Below, piece after piece: positions 10,145 through 31,493 of a stretch of DNA of 36,286 nt. The DNA comes from a virus. Its lineage: Duplodnaviria; Heunggongvirae; Uroviricota; Caudoviricetes. The stretch lies in the IMG/VR virus record IMGVR_UViG_2778261315_000002. The stretch is one strand, 5' to 3'. Position numbers and translations under genes: made by a program. The number at the start of each line of letters is the position of its first letter. Position 1 is the first letter of the stretch. The notes under the pieces were generated by a model. The model was not told the origin of the DNA, did not search any database, and saw nothing but the letters and a program-made list of their open reading frames with translations.

Positions 10145-10711
10145 TCAGGGGGATTCATTGCTCTTATTTGCCGGAAATTTTCTATAAATTGTGGAAACAC
10201 CCACATCAAAAATCAGTGCAATACGCTGTCTTGATTCTCCGGCCTCGAGTAAACGCCCAATCTGTGCCCACTGTTCGGTGGTCAACTTAGGACGGCGTCC
10301 ACCTACTCTGCCTTTGGCACGAGCTGCAGCCAGCCCTGCCCTGGTACGTTCAACTATCAGTTCGCGTTCCATTTCAGCCAGGGCACCCATGACATGAAAA
10401 AAGAAACGGCCCATTGGGGTGCTGGTATCAATACTGTCAGTCAGGCTTCGGAAATTCACGCCTTGCTGACGCAACTCTTCTATCAGCGTAACAAGATGCC
10501 GCATACTGCGCCCCAACCTGTCCAGCTTCCAGACAACCAGCGTGTCTCCTGCCGATAGTGTCCTGAGCAGTTTTTTCAACCCTGGTCTGTCGGACTTAGT
10601 GCCACTGATTTTATCCTCAAAAATCCGCTCACATCCCGCGCAGTTCAGTGCATTACGTTGCAAATCGGTGTTCTGGTCATTTGTTGACACGCGTACATAG
10701 CCAATAAGCAT
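10145..10711 (-). CDS. Site-specific DNA invertase, serine recombinase (Hin/Gin/Cin/Pin family)
   Basis: 188 aa from the ATG at 10711 (MLIGYVRVSTNDQ...DRLGRS...C-terminal HTH); near colinear with Hin/Gin as I recall them; the track ORF extends 15 codons upstream to 10756. Confidence 0.9.
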   Translation of the reverse strand: MLIGYVRVSTNDQNTDLQRNALNCAGCERIFEDKISGTKSDRPGLKKLLRTLSAGDTLVVWKLDRLGRSMRHLVTLIEELRQQGVNFRSLTDSIDTSTPMGRFFFHVMGALAEMERELIVERTRAGLAAARAKGRVGGRRPKLTTEQWAQIGRLLEAGESRQRIALIFDVGVSTIYRKFPANKSNESP

Positions 10712-10766
10712 GAGCATCCCCCTGAATAAAAACCGGGGATGATGCCAGTTAACCATTATCTCTGCA

Positions 10767-10792
10767 TTTTCATAAACGTTGGTTTGGGAGAA
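10767..10792. repeat. Invertase crossover site, invertase-proximal (gix/hix-like, 26 bp)
   Basis: Reverse complement TTCTCCCAAACC-AA-CGTTTATGAAAA matches the site at 12453-12478 at 22 of 26 positions (first 14 identical) and fits the Hin-family site architecture of two imperfect inverted half-sites around a 2-bp core. Confidence 0.75.
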
Positions 10793-11365
10793 GGCTCTGC
10801 ATTACCTGTTGGTGTCCCTGTTCCGTGGCCTTCAGCCACTCCGCCAACAGGCTGGCTGAAATGCAATGGTGCGGCTTTTTCTGCTGAAGAATACCCGGAA
10901 CTGGCAAAGGCTTACCCGACAAATAAATTGCCAGATTTACGTGGTGAGTTTATTCGTGGCTGGGATGACGGGCGAGGGATTGATGAGGGGCGCATACTTC
11001 TCAGTTGTCAGAGTTTTGCTTTCCAGGACCATGCGCACGCTCTGCCAACCGGAGTGGGTAATCCGTCAGACCAGATGGAAAGCGATATCTATGCGGTTTT
11101 CAACGATGTACCAGAAATACCCAGTGCGGCCCTGAGTCCATCGTCGTCAGGAACATCATGGGACGCAACCAGTAGGGCAGACAAGGTAATCCTTTATCGC
11201 AAGGACCTTTCACCAACAGGTAATAACAACGCAATAGCGACCGGATTACCACCATTCAGGACTTACAGGGCATCGACCTCAGACGGTGTTACTCATCCGT
11301 CCGTGTACGCATCTGAAACCCGTCCGCGCAACATTGCATTTAACTACATCGTGAGGGCTGCATAA
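10781..11365 (+). CDS. Alternate tail-fibre C-terminal cassette (promoterless; fuses to the constant part of H after inversion); P2 gpH C-terminus-like
   Basis: Frame open from the crossover site; encodes GLGE-GSALPVGVPVPWPSATPPTGWLKCNGAAF...LPDLRGEFIRG...NIAFNYIVRAA, resembling the P2 gpH C-terminal region. The GLGE junction matches LGLGE in H at its crossover site. The ATG at 10739 in the track is probably not a real start. Confidence 0.7.
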   Translation, partial: GLGEGSALPVGVPVPWPSATPPTGWLKCNGAAFSAEEYPELAKAYPTNKLPDLRGEFIRGWDDGRGIDEGRILLSCQSFAFQDHAHALPTGVGNPSDQMESDIYAVFNDVPEIPSAALSPSSSGTSWDATSRADKVILYRKDLSPTGNNNAIATGLPPFRTYRASTSDGVTHPSVYASETRPRNIAFNYIVRAA

Positions 11366-11970
11366 TGGCGAAAGCAAAATTAAACAGTGCGTTTATTGCC
11401 ACCGTGGCAGGAGAAATCACTGTGTACAACTACCGGGGCGACACCCGCGAATACATATCCTCATCGGTTGAGTATCTGCCTGTGGGGGTGGGTATTCCTG
11501 CCAATTCCTGTACCGATGCGCCCGGCACACATAAGGCTGGTTATGCAATCTGCCGTTCTGCAGATTTTAACTCATGGGAATATGTGCCAGACCATCGCGG
11601 TGAAATTGTCTATGGCATCGAAACGGGGGAATCAAAAGAAATTACTGTGCCGGGGGATTACCCTGAAAATACGACCACTTTTGCCCCATTAACGCCATAC
11701 GATAAATGGGATGGTGAGAAATGGGTAACAGATACCGAGGCACAGCATAGCGCCGCAGTAGATGCAGCAGAAGTACAGCGCCAGTCTCTGATTGATGCTG
11801 CTATGGCTTCCATCAGTCTGATTCAGCTGAAATTGCAGGCCGGACGTAAACTGACGCAGGCAGAAACAACCCGCCTTAACGCTGTGCTGGATTACATTGA
11901 CGCGGTGACGGCAATAGATACCAGCACCGCGCCTGATATTATTTGGCCTGTATTCCCTGAGACTGATTAA
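11365..11970 (+). CDS. Tail fibre assembly chaperone (Tfa / Mu U' type), cognate to the alternate fibre cassette
   Basis: 201 aa, start overlapping the cassette stop (TAATG); C-terminal ...DTSTAPDIIWPVFPE typical of Tfa chaperones; opposite orientation to the tail operon, as expected inside an invertible segment. Confidence 0.7.
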   Translation: MAKAKLNSAFIATVAGEITVYNYRGDTREYISSSVEYLPVGVGIPANSCTDAPGTHKAGYAICRSADFNSWEYVPDHRGEIVYGIETGESKEITVPGDYPENTTTFAPLTPYDKWDGEKWVTDTEAQHSAAVDAAEVQRQSLIDAAMASISLIQLKLQAGRKLTQAETTRLNAVLDYIDAVTAIDTSTAPDIIWPVFPETD

Positions 11971-20179: not shown

Positions 20180-20830
20180 TCAGCGGCTGTCATTGCGCAG
20201 TCTGCGCTCCAGCTGCTGTTTGTCTTTTTTCACGCCACAGCGGGGATCGAGCTGTAACGCATGGTTGAGATGGTTAAGGGCAGAAGCCGGATTGCTTTCA
20301 CTCAGGACAGCGCCAATCGCTTTATGCAGACGCGCCCGTGACTGGTCCGGCATATCCAGACCGTCTGTTAGTTCCAGTGTCTGCAGTAACAGATCGGCAT
20401 CAAAGCCGGTGGCGGCAAGCATTGCGCTCTGCGCTGCGTCTGCCATTTCCTCTGCCAGCACGGTCTGCACGTTGCGGTTACCCAGCGGCATCACCCAGCC
20501 ATGACGCAGGGCATGACGCCCGATCTCCAGCGCCCCGGCATAATCTCCGGCATCAATGCGCCACAGCATCACGTACATCAGCACGTCATCCTGTTGAGCG
20601 CCTCCGGCAGCCAGGACACCCTCTGCCCAGGCGGCGTACTTCGGCAGCAGCTCCACCTTGATTTCCGCTTTTTTGACCGTGGACTGAACGCCCTTGAGAC
20701 GGCGGCGGTCTTCCGCCAGTTGCAGCAGCATCAGGTCATAGCCCGACGCGTGGCGAACACTGCCGCCCTCGCGGGCGGCCTGTTCAGCCTGAACGCGCAG
20801 GCGATGCTGCCGTGCGGGACTCAGGCTCAT
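20180..20830 (-). CDS. M: Terminase endonuclease (small) subunit M
   Basis: 216 aa; P2 gpM position and similarity. Confidence 0.8.
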   Translation of the reverse strand: MSLSPARQHRLRVQAEQAAREGGSVRHASGYDLMLLQLAEDRRRLKGVQSTVKKAEIKVELLPKYAAWAEGVLAAGGAQQDDVLMYVMLWRIDAGDYAGALEIGRHALRHGWVMPLGNRNVQTVLAEEMADAAQSAMLAATGFDADLLLQTLELTDGLDMPDQSRARLHKAIGAVLSESNPASALNHLNHALQLDPRCGVKKDKQQLERRLRNDSR

Positions 20831-22884: not shown

Positions 22885-24651
22885 ATGAACACCACACTGA
22901 CACCCGCAGATCTCGATCCCCGTCGGCAGGCGATGCTGCTGTACTTTCAGGGATACCGCGTAGCCCGCATTGCTGAAATGCTGGGCGAGAAAGTTGCAAC
23001 CGTTCACAGCTGGAAAAAACGCGACAAGTGGGGTGACTATGGGCCGCTGGATCAGATGCAGCTCACCACCGCCGCACGCTACTGCCAGCTCATCATGAAG
23101 GAGCACAAAGAAGGGAAAGATTTCAAAGAGATTGACCTGCTGGCGCGCCAGTCTGAGCGCCACGCGCGGATCGGCAAGTTTAACAATGGCGGCAACGAAT
23201 CCGACTTAAACCCTAACGTCGCCAACCGCAACAAAGGCCCACGCCGTCAGCCGGAAAAGAATGTTTTCACCGATGAGCAGATTGAGAAGCTGGAAGAAAT
23301 CTTCCATTCCTCCATGTTCAACTACCAGCGCCACTGGTGGGAAGCCGGAAAAACCAACCGCATCCGCAACCTGCTGAAGTCACGCCAGATCGGCGCGACC
23401 TTTTACTTTGCCCGTGAAGCCCTGATTGACGCCCTGCTTACCGGACGTAACCAGATTTTCCTTTCCGCCAGTAAGGCACAGGCTCACGTCTTTAAGCAGT
23501 ACATCATAGACTTCGCCAAAGAAGTCGAGGTGGAGCTGAAAGGCGATCCGATGGTGCTTCCCAACGGGGCCACGCTTTACTTCCTCGGCACCAATGCCCG
23601 CACGGCCCAGAGTTACCACGGCAACCTTTATCTGGATGAATATTTCTGGATACCGAAATTCCAGGAGCTGCGCAAAGTGGCTTCCGGTATGGCTATTCAC
23701 AAAAAATGGCGACAAACCTATTTTTCCACGCCATCCAGCCTGACACACAGTGCTTATCCGTTCTGGTCCGGTGCGCTGTTCAACCGTGGGCGCAACAAAG
23801 CCGATAAGGTGGACATCGACCTGTCCCACAGCAATTTGGCCCCCGGCCTGCTGTGCGCAGACGGGCAATACCGCCAGATAGTCACCGTGGAAGATGCGGT
23901 GCGCGGCGGCTGTAACCTGTTCGACCTTGACCAGTTGCGCATGGAGTACAGCCCGGACGAATACCAGAACCTGCTGATGTGCGAATTTGTGGACGATCTC
24001 GCGTCCGTGTTTCCGCTCAGCGAGCTGCAGGCGTGCATGGTGGACAGTTGGGAAGTCTGGAGCGACTTTCATGCACTGGCTCTGCGCCCGTTTGGCTGGC
24101 GCGAAGTGTGGATCGGTTATGACCCGGCAAAAGGTACGCAGAACGGCGACAGCGCCGGATGCGTGGTGGTGGCACCGCCAGCCGTGCCGGGCGGTAAGTT
24201 CCGCATTCTTGAGCGTCACCAGTGGCGCGGGATGGACTTCCGCGCCCAGGCGGACGCCATCAAAAAACTGACCGAACAGTACAACGTGACATATATCGGC
24301 ATCGACTCGACGGGTGTCGGTCACGGGGTTTATGAGAACGTGAAAGCGTTTTTTCCAGCCGTCCGGGAGTTTGTCTACAACCCCAACGTTAAAAACGCCC
24401 TGGTACTCAAGGCCTACGACATTATCAGTCACCGTCGTCTGGAGTTTGACGCCGGACACACCGACATAGCGCAGTCATTTATGGCAATCCGTCGTGCCAC
24501 CACAGCCAGCGGCAACCGCCCGACCTATGAAGCCAGCCGCAGCGAAGAAGCCAGCCATGCCGATCTGGCCTGGGCAACAATGCACGCACTGTTTAACGAA
24601 CCGCTGCAGGGCGAGTCCGCCAATACCAGCAATATTGTGGAGATTTTTTGA
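22885..24651 (+). CDS. P: Terminase large (ATPase) subunit P
   Basis: 588 aa; divergent from O as in P2; an internal Met 16 codons in is an alternative start. Confidence 0.85.
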   Translation: MNTTLTPADLDPRRQAMLLYFQGYRVARIAEMLGEKVATVHSWKKRDKWGDYGPLDQMQLTTAARYCQLIMKEHKEGKDFKEIDLLARQSERHARIGKFNNGGNESDLNPNVANRNKGPRRQPEKNVFTDEQIEKLEEIFHSSMFNYQRHWWEAGKTNRIRNLLKSRQIGATFYFAREALIDALLTGRNQIFLSASKAQAHVFKQYIIDFAKEVEVELKGDPMVLPNGATLYFLGTNARTAQSYHGNLYLDEYFWIPKFQELRKVASGMAIHKKWRQTYFSTPSSLTHSAYPFWSGALFNRGRNKADKVDIDLSHSNLAPGLLCADGQYRQIVTVEDAVRGGCNLFDLDQLRMEYSPDEYQNLLMCEFVDDLASVFPLSELQACMVDSWEVWSDFHALALRPFGWREVWIGYDPAKGTQNGDSAGCVVVAPPAVPGGKFRILERHQWRGMDFRAQADAIKKLTEQYNVTYIGIDSTGVGHGVYENVKAFFPAVREFVYNPNVKNALVLKAYDIISHRRLEFDAGHTDIAQSFMAIRRATTASGNRPTYEASRSEEASHADLAWATMHALFNEPLQGESANTSNIVEIF

Positions 24652-25676
24652 TGGGAAAGAGTAAAAAGAACCGCGCTGCGTCGACGAACCAGATCCAGCA
24701 TAAAAGCCAGACTTCAGCCGAAGCATTCAGCTTTGGTGATCCCATTCCTGTACTGGACCGCCGCGAACTGCTGGACTATGTGGAATGCGTACAGACGGAT
24801 CGCTGGTATGAGCCACCCGTAAGTTTTGACGGACTGGCGCGCACCTTCCGCGCTGCCGTGCATCACAGTTCCCCGATTGCAGTAAAGTGCAACATTCTGA
24901 CCAGTACCTATATCCCTCATCCGCTGCTCAGCCAACAGGCTTTTTCGCGTTTTGTGCAGGACTATCTGGTATTTGGTAACGCCTACCTGGAGAAACGCAC
25001 GAACCGATTCGGTGAAGTTATCGCCCTTGAGCCTGCGCTGGCAAAATACACCCGACGTGGGTTAGACCTGGATACCTACTGGTTTGTGCAATACGGTATG
25101 ACAACCCAGCCGTATCAGTTCACGAAAGGCAGCATTTTTCATCTGATGGAACCGGACATCAACCAGGAGATCTACGGCCTGCCAGGCTATCTTTCTGCCA
25201 TTCCATCCGCCCTGCTCAACGAGTCTGCCACGCTGTTCCGCCGTAAGTATTACATCAACGGCAGCCATGCAGGCTTCATCATGTACATGACCGACGCCGC
25301 GCAGAATCAGGAGGATGTGAACAATCTCCGCAACGCGATGAAAAGCGCCAAAGGTCCAGGCAACTTCCGCAACCTGTTTATGTACTCGCCTAATGGCAAA
25401 AAGGACGGCCTTCAGATCATCCCTTTGTCAGAAGTTGCGGCGAAGGATGAGTTTCTGAATATCAAAAATGTCAGCCGCGATGACATGATGGCAGCACATC
25501 GCGTTCCGCCACAGATGATGGGGATAATGCCTAATAATGTTGGGGGTTTTGGGGATGTGGAGAAGGCAGCAAATGTGTTTGTGCGAAATGAGTTATTACC
25601 CCTGCAAAAGCGTTGTTTAGAATTAAATGAATGGAGTAAAAAAGAACTCATACGGTTTGAGAGATACAGTTTATAA
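24651..25676 (+). CDS. Q: Portal protein Q
   Basis: 341 aa from the ATG at 24651, overlapping the P stop (TGATG); P2 gpQ size and position. The last ~25 codons lie in AT-rich sequence. Confidence 0.85.
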   Translation: MGKSKKNRAASTNQIQHKSQTSAEAFSFGDPIPVLDRRELLDYVECVQTDRWYEPPVSFDGLARTFRAAVHHSSPIAVKCNILTSTYIPHPLLSQQAFSRFVQDYLVFGNAYLEKRTNRFGEVIALEPALAKYTRRGLDLDTYWFVQYGMTTQPYQFTKGSIFHLMEPDINQEIYGLPGYLSAIPSALLNESATLFRRKYYINGSHAGFIMYMTDAAQNQEDVNNLRNAMKSAKGPGNFRNLFMYSPNGKKDGLQIIPLSEVAAKDEFLNIKNVSRDDMMAAHRVPPQMMGIMPNNVGGFGDVEKAANVFVRNELLPLQKRCLELNEWSKKELIRFERYSL

Positions 25677-25695
25677 AATCCAAAAAAACATAAAA

Positions 25696-25715
25696 ATGGC
25701 CGCTTAAACGGCCAT
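25696..25715 (-). terminator. Intrinsic terminator of the cargo operon
   Basis: Hairpin atggccg-cttaaa-cggccat; on the minus strand it is followed by TTTTTATGTTTTTTT, directly after the stop of the membrane-protein gene. Confidence 0.55.
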
Positions 25716-25720
25716 CCTTA

Positions 25721-26404
25721 TTAATTTGAAGAATCTTTTTTGAAGGTATCCAAATACCCTCTCAAATCAAAATCTTTATTACCCCTAAATTTTTCAACAT
25801 CTTTCTTGTCTGCATCTCTTTGTTCTCTAATCTTCTTGTTTAGTTTTTCAATCAAAGATTGTCTTTCGGCCTCTATTTCTTTTATTTTTTCAAAATGGAG
25901 TTTCGCCTTTCGTGCTTCTTCAGTCTTTACAATTATTTCATAACAAACACACAAAAGAAAACAAACCGTGGAAACGGTCATCCCTGCATCCACAACTATG
26001 AAGTAACCAATATCAACATTTTCTTTTATCTTATCTAAAGGCACAATCAAACATCCAAGAACCATAAAAAGCCCCACCACAAGATAAATAAAATTAATAG
26101 AGTTACGATAACTCAATTTAAAATATTCATCTTTTTGAGCTTCAAATAATTCCACCACATTACTTGGAGCCTTACTGTTTAACTCAATATCTTTAATCTT
26201 ATCCTGATAATCCACAAATCTTTTTACCAGCAAACCAATTAAAATAGCACCAATTAAAGATAATGCTTTAGATATAAGAGAACCAATTTCTAACAATATA
26301 CCAGTCTGATTGTAAATCCCATAAAAAACAGAAGCGAAAAGTCCCCCTATCAAGATAGATAAGCTCAACTGTATAATAAAACGCTCTATTCTTTTATTAA
26401 TCAT
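25721..26404 (-). CDS. Cargo operon gene 2: small integral membrane protein (4 predicted TM helices, Lys/Glu-rich coiled-coil tail); candidate defence or abortive-infection effector
   Basis: 227 aa from the ATG at 26404, which overlaps the upstream stop (ATGA); hydrophobic stretches FIIQLSLSILIGGLFASVFYGIY, ILLEIGSLISKALSLIGAILIGLLV, FIYLVVGLFMVLGCLIVPL, GYFIVVDAGMTVSTVCFLLCVCYEIIV; AT-rich. Confidence 0.5.
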   Translation of the reverse strand: MINKRIERFIIQLSLSILIGGLFASVFYGIYNQTGILLEIGSLISKALSLIGAILIGLLVKRFVDYQDKIKDIELNSKAPSNVVELFEAQKDEYFKLSYRNSINFIYLVVGLFMVLGCLIVPLDKIKENVDIGYFIVVDAGMTVSTVCFLLCVCYEIIVKTEEARKAKLHFEKIKEIEAERQSLIEKLNKKIREQRDADKKDVEKFRGNKDFDLRGYLDTFKKDSSN

Positions 26405-27396
26405 GGATTTATCACCCCAGCATCCAACAACCTTAACAACCATTCAACCATTTCATCACAAACACTATCAACAACTGGTAAACCCTTACTATATTCAATG
26501 CTAACATTGTCTTTTATTTGAATCTCATCATTTTTCAAAATCCCTGCACCTTTTAACTCAATAGTCAACATTTCATCCCTGTTATCAATTAGCCCCTCGG
26601 TTATCTTCCGAAGTAAATCTTGCTCATTATCACTGGCTCGATATTTATAACCAATAGAAATATCAATTGTAAGGTGTTCCTTTATTTCTGTATCAGGGGT
26701 ACTGTTTTTACGCAATTCTTCAACACGATGCTCACCAATTAAAGAACGCAATAACTCACTAGCAGCATCGTCAACGCCATTACCATTATATGTCAACGGC
26801 AGTTTTAAACTAACATTTTTAATGTTATTTCTTCTCAAGAATTCATTACTAATGCTTAAATTATTTGCCTGCAAAACAATAAAGTTTTCAACATCTACTC
26901 GTAGATTTTCCTTTAAAATAAAATTAATGTAATTTTCAATGTCTTTTATTCTTATTGCTCTACTTTGTAAAATCACGACATGATTCTTAACAACACCAAT
27001 ATAGGCAAAACTATCCAAATATTCTTTAACATCGCCACCCGCAATTCTGAAAGCCTCATATTCCAATTTCGGATTTTTATATTCCGTAACATCAAATACT
27101 GGAATACTTCCGCCAGGCTCTATGTACACAATTTCTGCAAAGAACATTCCGTTACGTTCAAATGAATTTGACATAACCATATGAGCATGCGTTGCCACAT
27201 CAGGATCAGAGTCCTTCGTTTCTAGAAAATGAACTCTATCTTGAACAGTACGAAACTTATGAGTCACAATCTCAGATAATCTGCTTTGTAAGTCTGATGT
27301 TAAAAGTGCATCTTTTTTAGGAAGCATAACTGCATGTCTGTAATGCAGTGCCTTGATTTTGGTATTGTTAGCAGCCATATAATTTCCAGTTTCCAT
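26401..27396 (-). CDS. Cargo operon gene 1: soluble protein of unknown function (candidate defence sensor or enzyme)
   Basis: 331-aa ORF (alternative ATG 6 codons in); no motif I can assign; AT-rich; translationally coupled to the downstream membrane protein. Confidence 0.5.
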   Translation of the reverse strand: METGNYMAANNTKIKALHYRHAVMLPKKDALLTSDLQSRLSEIVTHKFRTVQDRVHFLETKDSDPDVATHAHMVMSNSFERNGMFFAEIVYIEPGGSIPVFDVTEYKNPKLEYEAFRIAGGDVKEYLDSFAYIGVVKNHVVILQSRAIRIKDIENYINFILKENLRVDVENFIVLQANNLSISNEFLRRNNIKNVSLKLPLTYNGNGVDDAASELLRSLIGEHRVEELRKNSTPDTEIKEHLTIDISIGYKYRASDNEQDLLRKITEGLIDNRDEMLTIELKGAGILKNDEIQIKDNVSIEYSKGLPVVDSVCDEMVEWLLRLLDAGVINP

Positions 27397-27483
27397 TCTA
27401 TATTATGCTTTTTTACATAATACCTGCATAACTCAAAAGCATCTACGATCTTAATCGCACATACTAAAGCCTACCTACGCGCG

Positions 27484-27502
27484 CTCGTATCCCCGCCACG
27501 CC
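27484..27502 (-). other. Candidate cos (cohesive-end) sequence
   Basis: Minus strand reads GGCGTGGCGGGGATACGAG; first 13 nt match the P2/186 cohesive-end sequence as I recall it (GGCG[A/T]GGCGGGGAAAGCA[C/T]), 15 of 19 against the 186 form; lies in a 310-bp non-coding stretch. Confidence 0.35.
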
Positions 27503-27705
27503 TGCCCGCTTTATGTAGTGGTTTTCATGCACCTGCATGATCTACGCAAAAGCCCGCCAGTTCTGGCAGGCCTTAGCAAAAACGATCCTCAAACGATCAT
27601 GCGATCTCATGCGGCATAGACATGCTCCACAGAGCTAACGCCTCGCACAGCTCGTTGTTCAACCTTGCTGACGCCAGAAGCAAGTTCAGACGCCAGCAAC
27701 GTTTC

Positions 27706-27939
27706 TTAATGCAGCCAGCTGTCGTCTTCCCACACCTTCTGCATAATTTTCATCACTTGTTTTCTTTCTTCGTCCAGTTGCAGTCCGGTCAGTTCCACAC
27801 CGTTAGAGCTACCTTTGCGGATACGAATTACCGTTTTGGGATACAGGGGGCGCAGATTGCGGTAAAGCTCGGATTCAAGGGCGTCCAGTGTAGACTGGCT
27901 AACCTTCTGCTCTTTATCGATCATTATTTCAATGCGCAT
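27706..27939 (-). CDS. DinI-family protein
   Basis: 77 aa from the ATG at 27939 (GAGGTGA Shine-Dalgarno): MRIEIMIDKEQKVSQSTLDALESELYRNLRPLYP...WEDDSWLH, colinear with E. coli DinI from memory. Confidence 0.75.
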   Translation of the reverse strand: MRIEIMIDKEQKVSQSTLDALESELYRNLRPLYPKTVIRIRKGSSNGVELTGLQLDEERKQVMKIMQKVWEDDSWLH

Positions 27940-27949
27940 AAAAGTCACC

Positions 27950-28138
27950 TCAGCTGATGACATCCATTGAGCGGTTGTATTCGTGGGTTCTGATTTTTGC
28001 CATGAGTTCATCTGTCAGTTCAGAAACCCACTGCAGGGCCAGCCCCTTCTCTTCATCACTACACTCACTAGCCGCTACAAGCTTAAGAAAAAAATCAATG
28101 CGCTGGAGCTTCAAAGACTCCAAAAAATAGTCCTGCAT
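27950..28138 (-). CDS. Small SOS-regulated protein, first gene of the LexA-controlled operon (possible Tum-type antirepressor)
   Basis: 62 aa, ATG at 28138 with AGGAGG Shine-Dalgarno, 43 bp downstream of a consensus LexA box; function inferred from context only. Confidence 0.4.
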   Translation of the reverse strand: MQDYFLESLKLQRIDFFLKLVAASECSDEEKGLALQWVSELTDELMAKIRTHEYNRSMDVIS

Positions 28139-28290: not shown

Positions 28291-30663
28291 TTAATACAGG
28301 TTTCGCCACTTATCATCTTCCTGCAAACGCTGGTTCCGATAGAAGATACGCAGGCCTGCTCCTGATGGAATACTGCCGCCGCGAAGCAGTAAATCGACCT
28401 CTTTCTCGCTGCCATCAATTCCCCTGGACTTCAGTTCATACACGAGCTGCTGTCGCTGATGATCTGTAATTCGCTGTTTGTAGTCTTTAAGCCGTTTCGG
28501 TTTCACAAGGCGTAACCTTGCTGCCAGTTCCCGGCGCTCTTTTTTGCTCATACTGTGCAGGTAATCGTGCAACTCCTTGTCATCCATGCGAGTGATATCC
28601 GTTCTGGTATCTCCATCAGCTGATTTGTCTTTCCCTTGTTGGTACAAATTTTCAGCAAGGGGACAGTTATTGCCACGAGTCCAAGGGGCGCAAGCGCCCT
28701 GGTCGGCTGCCGCCTCCTGAACGTCAACGGCTTTACGAACCATTTTCCACTTCACTGCATGAGTGCAGATCTTGCCCTCTGCAATGGGTGACCAGATGCC
28801 ATAAATACGAATACCGTGATCGCCATAGGCGGTCGGCTCTTCGTTGATTTCATAAGCGGTTCTGATGAGGTGATATTTACGGGGAACCAGTACGCCGCCC
28901 TGCTTCATGATGTAGGTGGCAAAGCAACCAGCATCAGCTGCAGCCAGAATGGCATCAAGGCGCGGGTTATCCAGTACCGGCGCACCTGCTTTTTTGTCAC
29001 CCTGTTGCCTTGCCGCCTGACCAGCCAGCAATCGCAGTTCACGGTAAGCCTGACGCCCCGGAATGCCAAAGAAGCGGAATTGCTGAACACGATGCAGAGA
29101 CGCCCAGGCATTAACGTATTCAGCGTTATCACGCAGAGATTTACCCGTTTCCTTGCTGATCTCGCCAGCCAGACCACGCCCGTCAATGTTCTTACTGATG
29201 TATTTCGCGATGTAGCTTGTTGGCGTACCTTTGCGCGGGTTAATCAACTCAGACTTAAAGCGCGGCCCAGTGTTATTGCCCAGTTCCTCGCGGTCTTCAC
29301 GGATGGCAAACTTACGCAGTAATGCAGTGATGGCGCGGCGGTCTTTTTTGCGCATAAAACACAACAGGTGCCAGTGAACTGTACCGTCATGATGCGGCTC
29401 AGCCACCCGCACGCCATACCACCGCAATCCGGCTTTGTGCATCGCCTTACGAAATGCAGCAAACATGCCGACCAGATAATCACTGCTTTGTCTTACCGTC
29501 GCATTTGTCCAAGTTGGGTTGGGCCTGCCATTATTTAGCGTGGAATGGAAACGTGACGGACAGGTGATGGTGTAGAAAACGGCGCAGTCACCGCGCATTT
29601 CCGCGATAAGCTCCAGGCCTTTAACACAGGCCATCATCTCATTGCGGCGATGCGCAGGGTTGCTGCTGCTGGCGTTTACCACATCCTCCATGTCCAGCGT
29701 GTCGCCGTCTTCGTTCACCAGTTCATGAGAACGAAAAAACTCCAGCGACTTACGGCGCTGCTCACGTTTATGCATCACGGCTTCATAGCTGACATAGGGA
29801 GATGCTTTTTTGCTGACCAGGCAGACAGCACGCAACTGCTCTTCCCGCCATTCGCAACGCATCTTCCATAATTTCCGGTACCACCAGTCAGCGCACAACA
29901 TACGCGCCAGCGAACCCGGAATGAGTTCATAGGGCACGGGTTTACGGCGGTTTCTTTTCCGGCGGAGTTGCTCAAACGCAGGCGGGATGACATCCAGACG
30001 CAGGGTTTCCGCTGCCACCTTTTCCCATGTCTTGCGGATTTCTTCTGGCTTAACGTCATCGGTGACATACAAATCGCCACAAGCTGCATCAAGGCACATG
30101 CTCATATGCGCAGCTACCAGGGTGGACAGGCGTTTCACCTGATCCTGACTCATTTCAGGCAGGATCAGCAGGCCGTCCAGCCCTTCATGGCTTGCCATAA
30201 AGCGAAAAGAAGTGGATAGCTGACAGTCGCGTACATGCTCCAGCCGTTCCAGACATGGCTTAATCGTCTCACGCAAATAGCGGGAATAAGCCTTTGGCCT
30301 GCCCAGGCTGCTGATGTATTCAATACGTTGCATCAGCGGCTTGCTGATATGGGAAGGCTGGGCATTGACGTCCGCCAGAATGACCATATCTGGATTAAAA
30401 CGCTGCTGCTCATGCGCCAGCTTTGCCCGACTAATGAGCTTATCCTGCTCCATTTCGCGCTGGACAGGATCACGGGATTCATTAAAGAAATAACGCTCCC
30501 AGACCTGATCACTCAGTGCCTCGCGGCGCAGCTGTTCCTGCTCGTTATCGGCAGCGTACAGAGCGATCAGGTTTGAAAGCGCAGAAACTGAAGATTGCTC
30601 TTCTGTCTCTACGTAAGGATTGATTGCTTTTTTCTCAGCATTCCAGGAATAGCTGTAGTTCAT
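28291..30663 (-). CDS. A: Replication initiation endonuclease A (rolling-circle initiator, HUH motif)
   Basis: About 790 aa from the ATG at 30663 (the track ORF extends to a TTG at 30714); HUH-like VHWHLLCF motif and downstream Tyr-containing region (YIAKYISK); P2 gpA position and similarity. Confidence 0.85.
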
Positions 30664-31493
30664 TACGCAATCTCCAGTTCGAGCTGTGAAGGCTGCAAAC
30701 CATTCGACAGCCAATCAGAAACTGAAGGTGGGCGAACAGCTTCAATTGCACCTTTTAAAATTGCGCAACGGTTTTTCAGAATGACAGCTTTCAGCTCCTT
30801 TTCCGTCAGATTGCGCGAATACTCAGCCTCCTGAATAGCCCGCGTCAGCTCAGGATATTTGCTATTAAATTTGGGGACATTGCAGGCAAGATTTGTACTG
30901 TCGGCAGTCGCCAGTGGGTAATTTCCCAACACACGACCGTCAAGCATGCGCAAACCATGAACAGCTGTTTTGAAATTGTGTCGGCAATAAATTGCTTCAA
31001 AAGCGTCCTGCATACGACGATGCCAGTGCGCAGTTCTGATAGCCGCATATTCACCAGACGATCCAAAGCAGACACGAGGCCATTCACGACATAGCTCGAT
31101 AAGCCGATCGATTGACTCGTGCAGATGCCAGACCGGAGTTGCCTTCCCGTAGAACATTTTCGGAACTTCGTTTATCAGGGCATCATTGTCACGTTCACCT
31201 CCGTCCACAACATCAGGAATGACAAAAAAAGCGACCTTAGGATGGTGGTAATAGTTCAGGAGCCATTTATAAAAATCACTCCAGTTAATTTTTAGCCCAC
31301 GCACCCATGCAGAAAATGCGCCGTTATCAATGCCGACGACCTGAGCGTGCTGAATGGACGCCGCAATCTGATCTGGTCGTACATAGGATACGAAAGCGCC
31401 AGCTCCGCTCACCGCAATACGATGAACGTCGCCAGCACTTCCCCAGACAGGCGTCCCATGGAAATGATGAATTCCGTGGTGCATTTCTTTCAC
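30663..31493 (-). CDS. Hypothetical protein between dam and A; possible TIM-barrel transglycosylase-like (TGT/DpdA-like) DNA-modification enzyme, speculative
   Basis: 276-aa ORF overlapping both neighbours (GTGA with the dam stop, TAATG with the A start). Motifs [17 protein letters not shown] and LATADST loosely parallel the three Asp-containing motifs of tRNA-guanine transglycosylases; this is a weak, by-eye resemblance only. Confidence 0.3.

What the first reader, a model, noticed from the sequence alone, without database searches (positions are those of the whole stretch)
27397..27705. Candidate cos site and packaging region
Within a 310-bp non-coding interval the minus strand reads GGCGTGGCGGGGATACGAG, whose first 13 nt match the cohesive-end sequence of P2/186 as I recall it. 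Its orientation is consistent with the P2 map (cos followed by Q read towards cos). If correct, the two-gene cargo operon sits between cos and Q, where P2 has only ~0.2 kb of non-coding DNA. An imperfect hairpin (gcccgccag ttct ctggcaggc) lies nearby.
Basis: partly seen in the sequence, partly recalled or inferred. Interest (0 to 1): 0.35.

Follow-up and report, generated by a model that had tools for sequence, protein, structure and literature searches.

The report
Packaging (cos) site of a P2-like prophage

Summary
Confirmed and ordinary. On the minus strand at 27484-27502 the window reads GGCGTGGCGGGGATACGAG. This matches the annotated cos of phage 186 at 13/13 leading bases (15/19 overall) and P2 at 14/19. 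It is identical to the 19-mer of Fels-2 and to the published putative cos of Salmonella phage SEN8. The 55-bp P2-family cos core is 41-44/55 identical to P2, P4, 186 and PSP3, and 54/55 to Fels-2. In 120 IMG/VR loci with the same 19-mer, wherever flanking genes are recognisable the site lies between gpA/DinI and a portal gene read towards it. Conservation is about 90% from -126 to +25 (window 27478-27628) and random outside. That module holds GCAT boxes at -123, -110, -100 and -28, at the same offsets (within 1 nt) in all seven cos regions compared, plus a GC-rich hairpin (27552-27571). The terminase genes gpM and gpP and the portal gene are intact. Cargo between cos and Q is the rule in this lineage (72 of 86 loci) and lies in the known gpA-gpQ defence hotspot. 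Physical ends were not mapped. Side lead: the two-gene cargo (a RexA/RdgC-like fold plus a 4-TM protein) also lies just beyond cos in a P4-like satellite.

The parts
27484..27502 (-). 19-nt cohesive-end sequence GGCGTGGCGGGGATACGAG. The inferred nicks are on the minus strand between 27503 and 27502, and on the plus strand between 27484 and 27483. These would give 5'-protruding 19-nt ends.
   Evidence: Aligns base for base with the annotated cos of P2, 186 and PSP3. Identical to Fels-2 and to the published or annotated putative cos of SEN8. The SEN8 record ends at the base that aligns to window 27503. The nick positions are inferred by homology.
27478..27628 (-). Conserved cos module: 126 bp on the right-arm (DinI/gpA) side, the 19-mer, and CGCGCG on the left-arm (Q) side. 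It contains the 55-bp family core (27477-27531).
   Evidence: Among 103 loci with distinct flanks, ungapped conservation is about 0.9 from -126 to +25 and about 0.3 outside. BLAST homology to related phages stops at 27478. Core identity is 41-44/55 to P2, P4, 186 and PSP3, and 54/55 to Fels-2.
27599..27625 (-). Distal cluster of three GCAT boxes (27622-27625, 27609-27612, 27599-27602; offsets -123, -110, -100) plus an inverted copy at 27614-27617. Candidate terminase (gpM) binding sites, analogous to lambda cosB.
   Evidence: Same offsets, within 1 nt, in P2, P4, 186, PSP3, Fels-2, the window and an Enterobacter P4-like satellite. Frequencies are 0.93-0.96 in Fels-2-type blocks and 0.48-0.78 in 112 P2/186/P4-type blocks that were not selected on this region. 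Six GCAT/ATGC in 126 nt against 1.25 expected, Poisson P = 0.002. The binding role is inferred.
27527..27538 (-). Proximal box pair CATGCAGGTGCATG: an inverted box at -36 and a direct GCAT box at -28.
   Evidence: GCAT at -28 occurs in 0.99 of both cos classes. ATGC at -36 occurs in 0.96 and 0.60.
27548..27571 (-). GC-rich hairpin GCCUGCCAG-AA-CUGGCGGGC followed by UUUU (as read on the minus strand). Possibly an intrinsic terminator of the DinI/Tum transcript that shields cos, or a protein-binding palindrome.
   Evidence: RNA fold -22.6 kcal/mol, z = -3.4, 0 of 200 shuffles as stable. Conserved at -69 to -50 in Fels-2-type loci; analogous palindromes lie at the same distance in 186, PSP3 and P4 but not in P2. 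The simple terminator scan did not call it because it has only 4 T. G.U versus A.C counts of 23 versus 16 give no strand evidence.
20180..20830 (-). gpM, small terminase subunit; presumed cos-recognition subunit.
   Evidence: Pfam Phage_term_smal, 2e-40. 100% identical to Klebsiella phages that share this cos block, 95% to SEN8, about 49% to P2-type gpM.
22885..24651 (+). gpP, large terminase subunit (ATPase/nuclease).
   Evidence: Pfam Terminase_5, Terminase_6N and Terminase_6C.
24648..25676 (+). gpQ portal protein, read towards cos.
   Evidence: Pfam Phage_portal. Same relative position and orientation in the 120 related loci wherever Q is present.
25721..27378 (-). Two-gene cargo operon between cos and Q: a 325-aa soluble protein (27378-26401; an upstream ATG at 27396 is also possible) and a 227-aa protein with four hydrophobic segments (26404-25721). 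The genes overlap by ATGA.
   Evidence: GC 0.28-0.38 against about 0.52 in the backbone. No Pfam, NCBIfam or PADLOC family; matches phrog_3482, function unknown. Found in only 4 of 5426 complete E. coli genomes.
25690..25721 (.). Bidirectional terminator-like hairpin between the converging Q and cargo genes. It is the positional equivalent of P2 tQ.
   Evidence: Called on both strands by the terminator scan, with 14 and 7 pairs. P2 tQ is annotated at 160-181.
27706..28011 (-). DinI/Tum-like gene. It is the last right-arm gene before cos; RefSeq uses the shorter start, 27706-27939.
   Evidence: Pfam DinI, 1e-22. Its counterpart is 186 tum/PSP3 tumB at the right end. RefSeq annotation.

Best explanation
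The interval holds the cos site of an apparently complete Fels-2/186-like P2-family (Peduoviridae) prophage, inserted next to ybjL in E. coli.

Inferred mechanism: after induction and replication, the phage terminase recognises a module of about 150 bp at 27478-27628. The terminase is gpM (20180-20830) plus gpP (22885-24651). Recognition most likely uses the positionally invariant GCAT boxes on the right-arm side. Terminase then nicks the two strands 19 nt apart, at the borders of GGCGTGGCGGGGATACGAG. This gives linear virion DNA with 5'-protruding complementary 19-nt ends that re-anneal after injection.

Almost nothing beyond 6 bp (CGCGCG) is conserved on the left-arm side. That leaves the DNA between cos and the portal gene free to carry exchangeable cargo, here a low-GC two-gene operon.

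Shown: sequence homology, position, the conservation boundaries and the presence of terminase genes.
Inferred: the exact nick positions, the terminase-binding role of the GCAT boxes, and the role of the hairpin.
For: 1. The 19-mer is unique in the window and absent from shuffles. It matches the annotated cos of 186 at 15/19 and P2 at 14/19, with the first 13 nt identical to 186.
2. The same 19-mer is published as the cos of the plaque-forming Fels-2-like phage SEN8 (PMC5427200). The SEN8 record starts with it and ends at the base aligning to window 27503. Fels-2 has the same 19-mer and flanks.
3. The 55-bp core defined for the P2 family (Ziermann & Calendar 1990, as cited in PMC5694545, PMC3931495 and PMC9594776) is 41-44/55 identical to P2, P4, 186 and PSP3, and 54/55 to Fels-2.
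4. In 120 IMG/VR loci with this 19-mer, whatever flanking genes are present follow one arrangement: gpA/DinI upstream and a convergent Q-P downstream. A few short loci showed no flanking gene at all.
5. There is a sharp conserved block from -126 to +25 with unrelated flanks.
6. GCAT boxes lie at -123 (-122 in P2), -110, -100 and -28 in seven cos regions. These include P4 and a P4-like satellite, which share nothing else with the phage.
7. Intact gpM, gpP, Q, O and N are present. gpM identity tracks cos type.
8. No Rfam family matches the interval.
Against: - No physical ends were mapped for this prophage. I also found no experimental end mapping for the ...ATACGAG variant: SEN8 annotates it only as a 'putative cos site'.
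- The last 6 nt of the cohesive end differ from P2/186, so the position of the right-hand nick rests on alignment only.
- A near-identical copy in strain 23CRST001 has gpA disrupted by an IS, so some copies of this prophage are defective.
- The GCAT boxes and the hairpin have no experimental assignment that I could retrieve.
Confidence: 0.93

Rival explanations
1. The sequence is a genuine cos by descent but is no longer used: a relic in a prophage that can no longer excise, replicate or package.
For: A 100%-identical copy of this region in E. coli 23CRST001 sits in a prophage whose gpA is split by an IS4-family element. No induction data exist for the source strain.
Against: In the window itself gpA is a full-length 807-aa ORF with a Phage_GPA domain. 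M, N, O, P, Q, the tail genes, the CI repressor and int all have full-length family matches. The cos block is 54/55 identical to Fels-2 over the core and carries the same 19-mer as the plaque-forming SEN8.
Confidence: 0.05
2. The site is cos, but the cohesive ends are not exactly these 19 nt. For example, the nick on the variable ATACGAG side could be shifted, giving an overhang of a different length.
For: Positions 14-19 differ from P2/186 at 4 of 6 bases. The SEN8 annotation is 'putative'.
Against: The bases flanking both inferred nicks are conserved across all types: GGGC(A/G)|GGCG on one side and |(T/C)GCGCG on the other. The spacing of all upstream elements relative to the 19-mer is invariant.
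Confidence: 0.05
3. The interval is only an intergenic regulatory region (terminator of the DinI operon plus cargo promoter). On this view the resemblance to cos is coincidental.
For: The interval does contain a stable GC-rich hairpin followed by UUUU, downstream of DinI, and it must hold the cargo promoter.
Against: A 13-mer match by chance is expected about 0.001 times (0 of 100 shuffles). Homology extends over about 150 bp to annotated cos regions. No sigma-70-like promoter was found between cos and the cargo start.
Confidence: 0.01

Closest known systems
cos of Fels-2 / SEN8 / RE-2010-type Peduoviridae (Felsduovirus and relatives)
   Same: Identical 19-mer GGCGTGGCGGGGATACGAG. Core 54/55 identical to Fels-2. 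Same hairpin, GCAT boxes and CGCGCG. Cargo genes between cos and Q (a 565-aa hypothetical protein in Fels-2; a hypothetical protein plus an HNH endonuclease in SEN8). gpM is 95% identical to SEN8.
   Different: Only the cargo differs. The host is E. coli rather than Salmonella, and this variant of the hairpin has one U.G pair.
cos of coliphage 186 / PSP3 (Eganvirus)
   Same: First 13 nt of the cohesive end are identical. CATAAAG(C/T)GGGCA lies immediately upstream. GCAT boxes lie at -123/-110/-100/-36/-28. A GCCAG..CTGGC palindrome sits at the same distance. A Tum/DinI gene lies on the right arm and a CI-type repressor is present.
   Different: The last 6 nt are AAGCAT rather than TACGAG. 186 and PSP3 have only about 0.18 kb of non-coding DNA between cos and the portal gene. 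gpM and P/Q identity to P2/186-type phages is only about 49% and 60-65%.
cos of P2 and satellite P4 (Ziermann & Calendar 1990: 19-nt 5' cohesive ends, 55-bp shared core)
   Same: Same map position, the same 55-bp core (41-42/55) and the same box offsets. Terminase is of the gpM + gpP type.
   Different: P2 and P4 have A at position 5 and AAGCAC at the 3' end. P2 keeps its cargo (old, tin) on the right-arm side of cos and has no clear hairpin at -69 to -50. No P4-like satellite with the Fels-2-type 19-mer was seen among the first 120 hits.
[quoted passage not shown] 2022, PMC9122126; PMC13586616)
   Same: Variable, low-GC cargo sits directly next to cos, between gpA and gpQ. A homologous cassette sits just beyond cos in a P4-like satellite.
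   Different: This cassette matches no PADLOC model. Its accession numbers are not in the supplementary tables of Rousset et al. that are held as text.
lambda cos (cosN + cosB)
   Same: Works alike: staggered nicks give 5' cohesive ends, and there is an asymmetric array of short repeated boxes on one side of the nick site.
   Different: No sequence homology. 12-nt versus 19-nt ends. The box array lies on the opposite arm relative to the head genes. From general knowledge, not tested here: P2-type terminase uses circular monomers rather than concatemers.

Membership tests
P2-family (Peduoviridae) cos site | 19-nt GC-rich cohesive-end sequence homologous to GGCG(A/T)GGCGGGGA... | tested here: met
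   15/19 to 186 and 14/19 to P2. 19/19 to Fels-2 and to the published SEN8 cos.
P2-family (Peduoviridae) cos site | 55-bp conserved core around the cleavage sites (Ziermann & Calendar 1990) | tested here: met
   41/55 to P2, 42 to P4, 43 to 186, 44 to PSP3 and 54 to Fels-2. For comparison, P2 versus 186 is 48/55.
P2-family (Peduoviridae) cos site | Map position between the right-arm replication/accessory genes and the portal gene Q, with Q transcribed towards cos | tested here: met
   Window gene order is P-Q-(cargo)-cos-DinI-A. The same order holds in the 120 loci with the same 19-mer wherever flanking genes are present.
P2-family (Peduoviridae) cos site | Cognate gpM/gpP terminase encoded by the same element | tested here: met
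   Phage_term_smal 2e-40; Terminase_5/6N/6C.
P2-family (Peduoviridae) cos site | Virion DNA ends are 5'-protruding 19-nt single strands at this sequence | not testable with these tools
   Needs virion DNA. SEN8 annotates the site only as 'putative cos site'.
P2-family (Peduoviridae) cos site | The fragment is sufficient for packaging/transduction of a plasmid by the helper phage | not testable with these tools
   Natural-variation boundaries (-126 to +25) predict the sufficient fragment.
cos-proximal defence hotspot of P2-like phages (Rousset 2022) | Locus between gpA and gpQ, adjacent to cos, with highly variable gene content among related phages | tested here: met
   103 distinct left flanks among 115 loci. 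The cos-to-Q distance ranges from 157 to 3535 bp. Cargo is a TIR protein, Hypoth_Ymh or other genes in relatives. Definition taken.
cos-proximal defence hotspot of P2-like phages (Rousset 2022) | The cargo confers anti-phage activity | not testable with these tools
   No PADLOC model matches except a marginal ZorB/MotB hit, E = 0.004.
RexAB-type abortive-infection system (cargo genes) | RexA-like two-domain fold in the soluble component | tested here: inconclusive
   Foldseek best PDB hit is lambda RexA 8twq_B, E = 1.3e-6, probability 1.00. However the TM-score is only 0.36/0.40 and the model's mean pLDDT is 67. RdgC appears among the viral hits, in line with the reported RexA-RdgC homology.
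RexAB-type abortive-infection system (cargo genes) | Sequence homology to RexA/RexB | tested here: not met
   hhalign probability 0.2 against lambda RexA. BLASTP E = 0.33 against RexB. No PDB sequence hit. Known RexAB-type systems also lack sequence similarity to lambda RexAB, to judge from the abstract of PMC12894663.
RexAB-type abortive-infection system (cargo genes) | Adjacent small membrane partner with four transmembrane segments | tested here: met
   Four hydrophobic 19-mers with Kyte-Doolittle score above 2 at about 9-27, 42-60, 105-123 and 135-153. Lambda RexB shows four by the same measure. The genes overlap by ATGA, and the pair is conserved as a unit in Enterobacter and Aeromonas.
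Intrinsic (rho-independent) terminator (hairpin 27548-27571) | GC-rich stem-loop followed directly by a U-run on the transcribed strand | tested here: inconclusive
   Stable stem (-22.6 kcal/mol, z = -3.4) followed by UUUU. It falls below the scan's requirement of 5 T in 8. The 186, PSP3 and P4 counterparts lack the T-run.

The most novel reading that the evidence does not exclude
The low-GC two-gene operon just beyond cos on the Q side is an undescribed RexAB-type abortive-infection system. It would pair a RexA/RdgC-fold sensor with a 4-TM effector. [quoted passage not shown] The cos site itself offers no novel reading that the evidence leaves open.
Probability: 0.3. Interest if true: 0.45.

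Novelty: already known. Interest (0 to 1): 0.12.

Why it matters
Locating cos fixes the ends of the virion genome. The mature DNA would run from 27502 leftwards through the cargo, Q and P, and it would end with the DinI-A arm. This tells an annotator that the two low-GC genes lie in the known cos-proximal cargo hotspot and are not part of the head module.

The comparison also gives a usable prediction. A fragment of about 150 bp (27478-27628) should be a sufficient packaging signal for Fels-2-type helpers, with positionally fixed GCAT boxes as candidate terminase contacts. That could help the design of cosmids or transducing particles for this lineage.

None of this changes what is known about P2-family packaging.

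Tried and rejected
- The 2-mismatch search for the 13-mer gave two extra hits (5151, 17545). These are at chance level (expected 1.1) and were discarded.
- I looked for strand-specific selection on the hairpin, comparing G.U with A.C variants among 56 distinct sequences. The counts were 23 and 16, so this gives no evidence that it acts as RNA on one strand. Compensatory double changes are few, so terminator versus protein-binding palindrome stays open.
- The sigma-70 promoter scan found no site between cos and the cargo start, so the cargo promoter is unidentified.
- Rfam gave nothing in 27300-27800.
- I looked for P4-like satellites carrying the Fels-2-type 19-mer.
- I searched the literature for experimental end mapping of the ...ATACGAG variant. 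Only SEN8's annotation-based 'cos site' turned up.
- The Christie & Calendar review (PMC4836473) is not held. The Ziermann & Calendar paper itself was not looked up. The '55-bp core' is therefore cited second-hand, and I make no claim about packaging direction or a minimal fragment length from memory.
- Sequence-level tests of the cargo against lambda RexA and RexB were negative.
- The cargo accession numbers are absent from the held supplements of Rousset et al..

Full report
**What is in the sequence.** The interval 27397-27705 lies between the ATG of a 331-aa minus-strand ORF and the stop codon of a DinI-family gene. On the minus strand, 27502 to 27484 reads GGCGTGGCGGGGATACGAG. The leading 13-mer occurs once in the 36-kb window and in none of 100 dinucleotide-preserving shuffles. 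Looser matches elsewhere are at chance level.

- The annotated cos of 186 (NC_001317 1-19) is ggcgtggcggggaaagcat.
- The annotated cos of P2 (NC_001895 1-19) is ggcgaggcggggaaagcac.
- The window therefore matches 186 at 13/13 leading bases and 15/19 overall, and P2 at 14/19.

It is GCCCGCCAG-TT-CTGGCAGGC at 27552-27571.

**Context.** The window holds the host genes ybjM and ybjL (288-2620), followed by an apparently complete P2-family prophage. The prophage carries D, tape measure, sheath, fibres, L, gpM small terminase (20180-20830), capsid N, scaffold O, gpP large terminase (22885-24651) and portal Q (24648-25676). Next come two low-GC cargo ORFs, the cos candidate, DinI/Tum, gpA, Dam, a CI-type repressor and integrase. 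Q is read towards the candidate site, as in P2. The region is 100% identical to a chromosomal prophage of E. coli 23CRST001, in which gpA is interrupted by an IS. The cos block itself recurs in 1276 of 5426 complete E. coli genomes.

**Homology to known cos sites.** I joined the right and left ends of the P2, P4, 186 and PSP3 records and compared them with the window and with Fels-2.
- The window is identical to Fels-2 over the 19-mer and its flanks. Over the 55 bp from -29 to +26 it is 54/55 identical.
- Over the same 55 bp it is 41-44/55 identical to P2, P4, 186 and PSP3. P2 versus 186 is 48/55.
- These 55 bp are the span I took, from the P2-P4 alignment, to correspond to the '55-bp core' of P2-family cos regions. 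That core is attributed to Ziermann & Calendar 1990 in PMC5694545, PMC3931495 and PMC9594776.
- The exact 19-mer ggcgtggcggggatacgag is published as the cos site of the Fels-2-like, plaque-forming Salmonella phage SEN8 (PMC5427200).
- The SEN8 record begins with the 19-mer, annotated 'putative cos site'. Its last base aligns to window 27503.

- Wherever flanking genes are recognisable, gpA/DinI lie upstream and a convergent Q-P pair lies downstream. No P4-type genes except distant integrase matches were found.
- I anchored 115 extracts on the 19-mer and kept one per distinct left flank, giving 103. Majority-base conservation is about 0.9 from -126 to +25 and falls abruptly to about 0.3 on both sides.
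- BLAST homology to related phages likewise stops at window 27478, which is 6 nt past the 19-mer.
- The conserved module is therefore window 27478-27628: 126 bp on the right-arm side, the 19-mer, and CGCGCG.

**Internal anatomy.** GCAT motifs lie at -123 (-122 in P2), -110, -100 and -28 in P2, P4, 186, PSP3, Fels-2, the window and an Enterobacter P4-like satellite. An inverted copy lies at -36 in all of these except P2 and P4. The sequence between the boxes is not conserved across types.
- In 112 distinct P2/186/P4-type blocks, retrieved with a pattern covering only -9 to +17, the boxes are still present. Their frequencies are 0.99, 0.78, 0.65 and 0.48, and ungapped counting underestimates these.
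- Six boxes in 126 nt compare with 1.25 expected from the window-wide rate, P = 0.002.
- I read these boxes as terminase (gpM) contact sites, analogous to the lambda cosB repeats. This is an inference.
- In line with this, gpM tracks cos type. It is 100% identical to Klebsiella phages that share the block, 95% to SEN8, and about 49% to P2-type gpM.

**The hairpin.** On the minus strand the hairpin reads GCCUGCCAG-AA-CUGGCGGGC followed by UUUU.
- It folds at -22.6 kcal/mol with z = -3.4.
- It is conserved at -69 to -50 in the Fels-2-type loci.
- Analogous palindromes sit at the same distance in 186, PSP3 and P4, without a T-run. P2 has none.
- It may terminate the DinI/Tum transcript before cos, or it may bind a protein.
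- Counts of G.U versus A.C variants (23 versus 16) and the scarcity of compensatory changes do not decide between these. The simple terminator scan did not call it.

**Cargo position.** P2 has 167 bp between cos and Q; the window has 1807 bp.
- This contrast with P2 is real, but it is not unusual for the lineage. Among loci with the window's 19-mer, 72 of 86 have more than 600 bp between cos and Q (median 1673). Among P2/186-type loci, 80 of 95 have 250 bp or less.
- Relatives carry a TIR protein, a Hypoth_Ymh protein, a 565-aa hypothetical protein, or a hypothetical protein plus an HNH endonuclease at the same place.
- The gpA-gpQ region next to cos is the defence hotspot described by Rousset et al. 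2022 (PMC9122126; also PMC13586616).
- Insertions between cosL and Q were noted earlier (Dodd & Egan 1996 and Nakayama 1999, as cited in PMC5694545).

**Mechanism.** By homology, gpM/gpP terminase binds the right-arm side of the module. It nicks the minus strand between 27503 and 27502, and the plus strand between 27484 and 27483. This gives 19-nt 5' cohesive ends; the 5'-protruding 19-nt ends of P2 are described in PMC3931495. Because only 6 bp are conserved on the left-arm side, DNA between cos and Q can be replaced freely. That explains the hotspot. The exact nick positions, the role of the boxes and the role of the hairpin are inferred. No physical ends are available, and I found no experimental mapping for the ATACGAG variant.

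**Side observation on the cargo.** The cargo is a 325-aa protein and a 227-aa protein whose genes overlap by ATGA. GC is 0.28-0.38 against about 0.52 in the backbone.
- Neither protein has a Pfam, NCBIfam or PADLOC family. The first belongs to phrog_3482, function unknown, and has only 17 homologue clusters.
- The pair is conserved as a unit in an Enterobacter P4-like satellite. The order there is psu, a cos with GGCGTGGCGGGGAAAGCAC, the pair about 0.4 kb further on, then int.
- The pair is also conserved in an Aeromonas satellite-like element.
- An AlphaFold model built on a 16-sequence alignment has mean pLDDT 67. Its best PDB match is lambda RexA (8twq, E = 1.3e-6, TM 0.36-0.40). RdgC appears among the viral hits, which fits the reported RexA-RdgC fold relationship.
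- Sequence-level comparisons with RexA and RexB are negative.
- The partner has four hydrophobic segments, like RexB.
- A RexAB-type abortive-infection cassette is a reasonable but unproven lead. RexAB-type systems without sequence similarity to lambda are known (PMC12894663).

**Verdict.** The feature is an already-known kind of element. It is in fact an already-published cos sequence variant, found in a well-described hotspot context. Interest in the cos site itself is low. The only part of the locus with some potential for novelty is the cargo operon next to it.

Noticed in passing
window 25721-27378 (minus strand); L256 6001-7643; L254 6001-7661: The two-gene cargo next to cos has no family assignment beyond phrog_3482. 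Its 325-aa protein models as a RexA/RdgC-like fold (Foldseek E = 1e-6 to lambda RexA, low TM-score, pLDDT 67), and the 227-aa partner has four hydrophobic segments. The pair recurs as a unit just beyond cos in an Enterobacter P4-like satellite and in an Aeromonas satellite-like element. It is a possible RexAB-type defence cassette shuttling between phage and satellite hotspots.
   Followed up: partly
window 27599-27625 and 27527-27538; same offsets in L001/L002 (P2), L008/L009 (P4), L003/L004 (186), L010/L011 (PSP3), L006 (Fels-2), L256: GCAT boxes sit at the same distances (-123, or -122 in P2; -110; -100; -28) from the cos cleavage site in phages and satellites whose intervening sequence has diverged. 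An inverted copy lies at -36 in most of them. They are likely terminase contact points. I could not retrieve a paper that assigns them.
   Followed up: partly
IMG/VR loci L012-L131 versus L134-L253: All 18 P4-like satellites recovered carried the P2-type 19-mer (…AAAGCAC). None of the first 120 loci with the Fels-2-type 19-mer was a satellite. Both scans were truncated at 120 rows, so this may only reflect sampling.
   Followed up: partly
L133 (E. coli 23CRST001, NZ_AP045758) 1-2430: In the genome with a 100%-identical cos-cargo region, gpA is split by an IS4-like ISVsa5 transposase. The window's gpA (28291-30714) is intact. The window therefore comes from a different, apparently non-degraded copy of the prophage.
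   Followed up: no
window 25690-25721: A 14-bp-stem hairpin with T-runs on both strands lies between the converging Q and cargo genes. It is a bidirectional terminator candidate and replaces P2 tQ in position.
   Followed up: no
window 27397-27483: No sigma-70-like promoter was detected between cos and the cargo start codon. There is an inverted repeat TTATGC-N17-GCATAA just upstream of the start. How the cargo is transcribed is unresolved: a weak AT-rich promoter, or read-through across cos.
   Followed up: no
window 10145-11970: ORFs on opposite strands lie in the tail-fibre region: 10145-10756 on the minus strand, and 10739-11365 and 11365-11970 on the plus strand, one with a Collar domain. 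This could be alternative or invertible tail-fibre cassettes.
   Followed up: no
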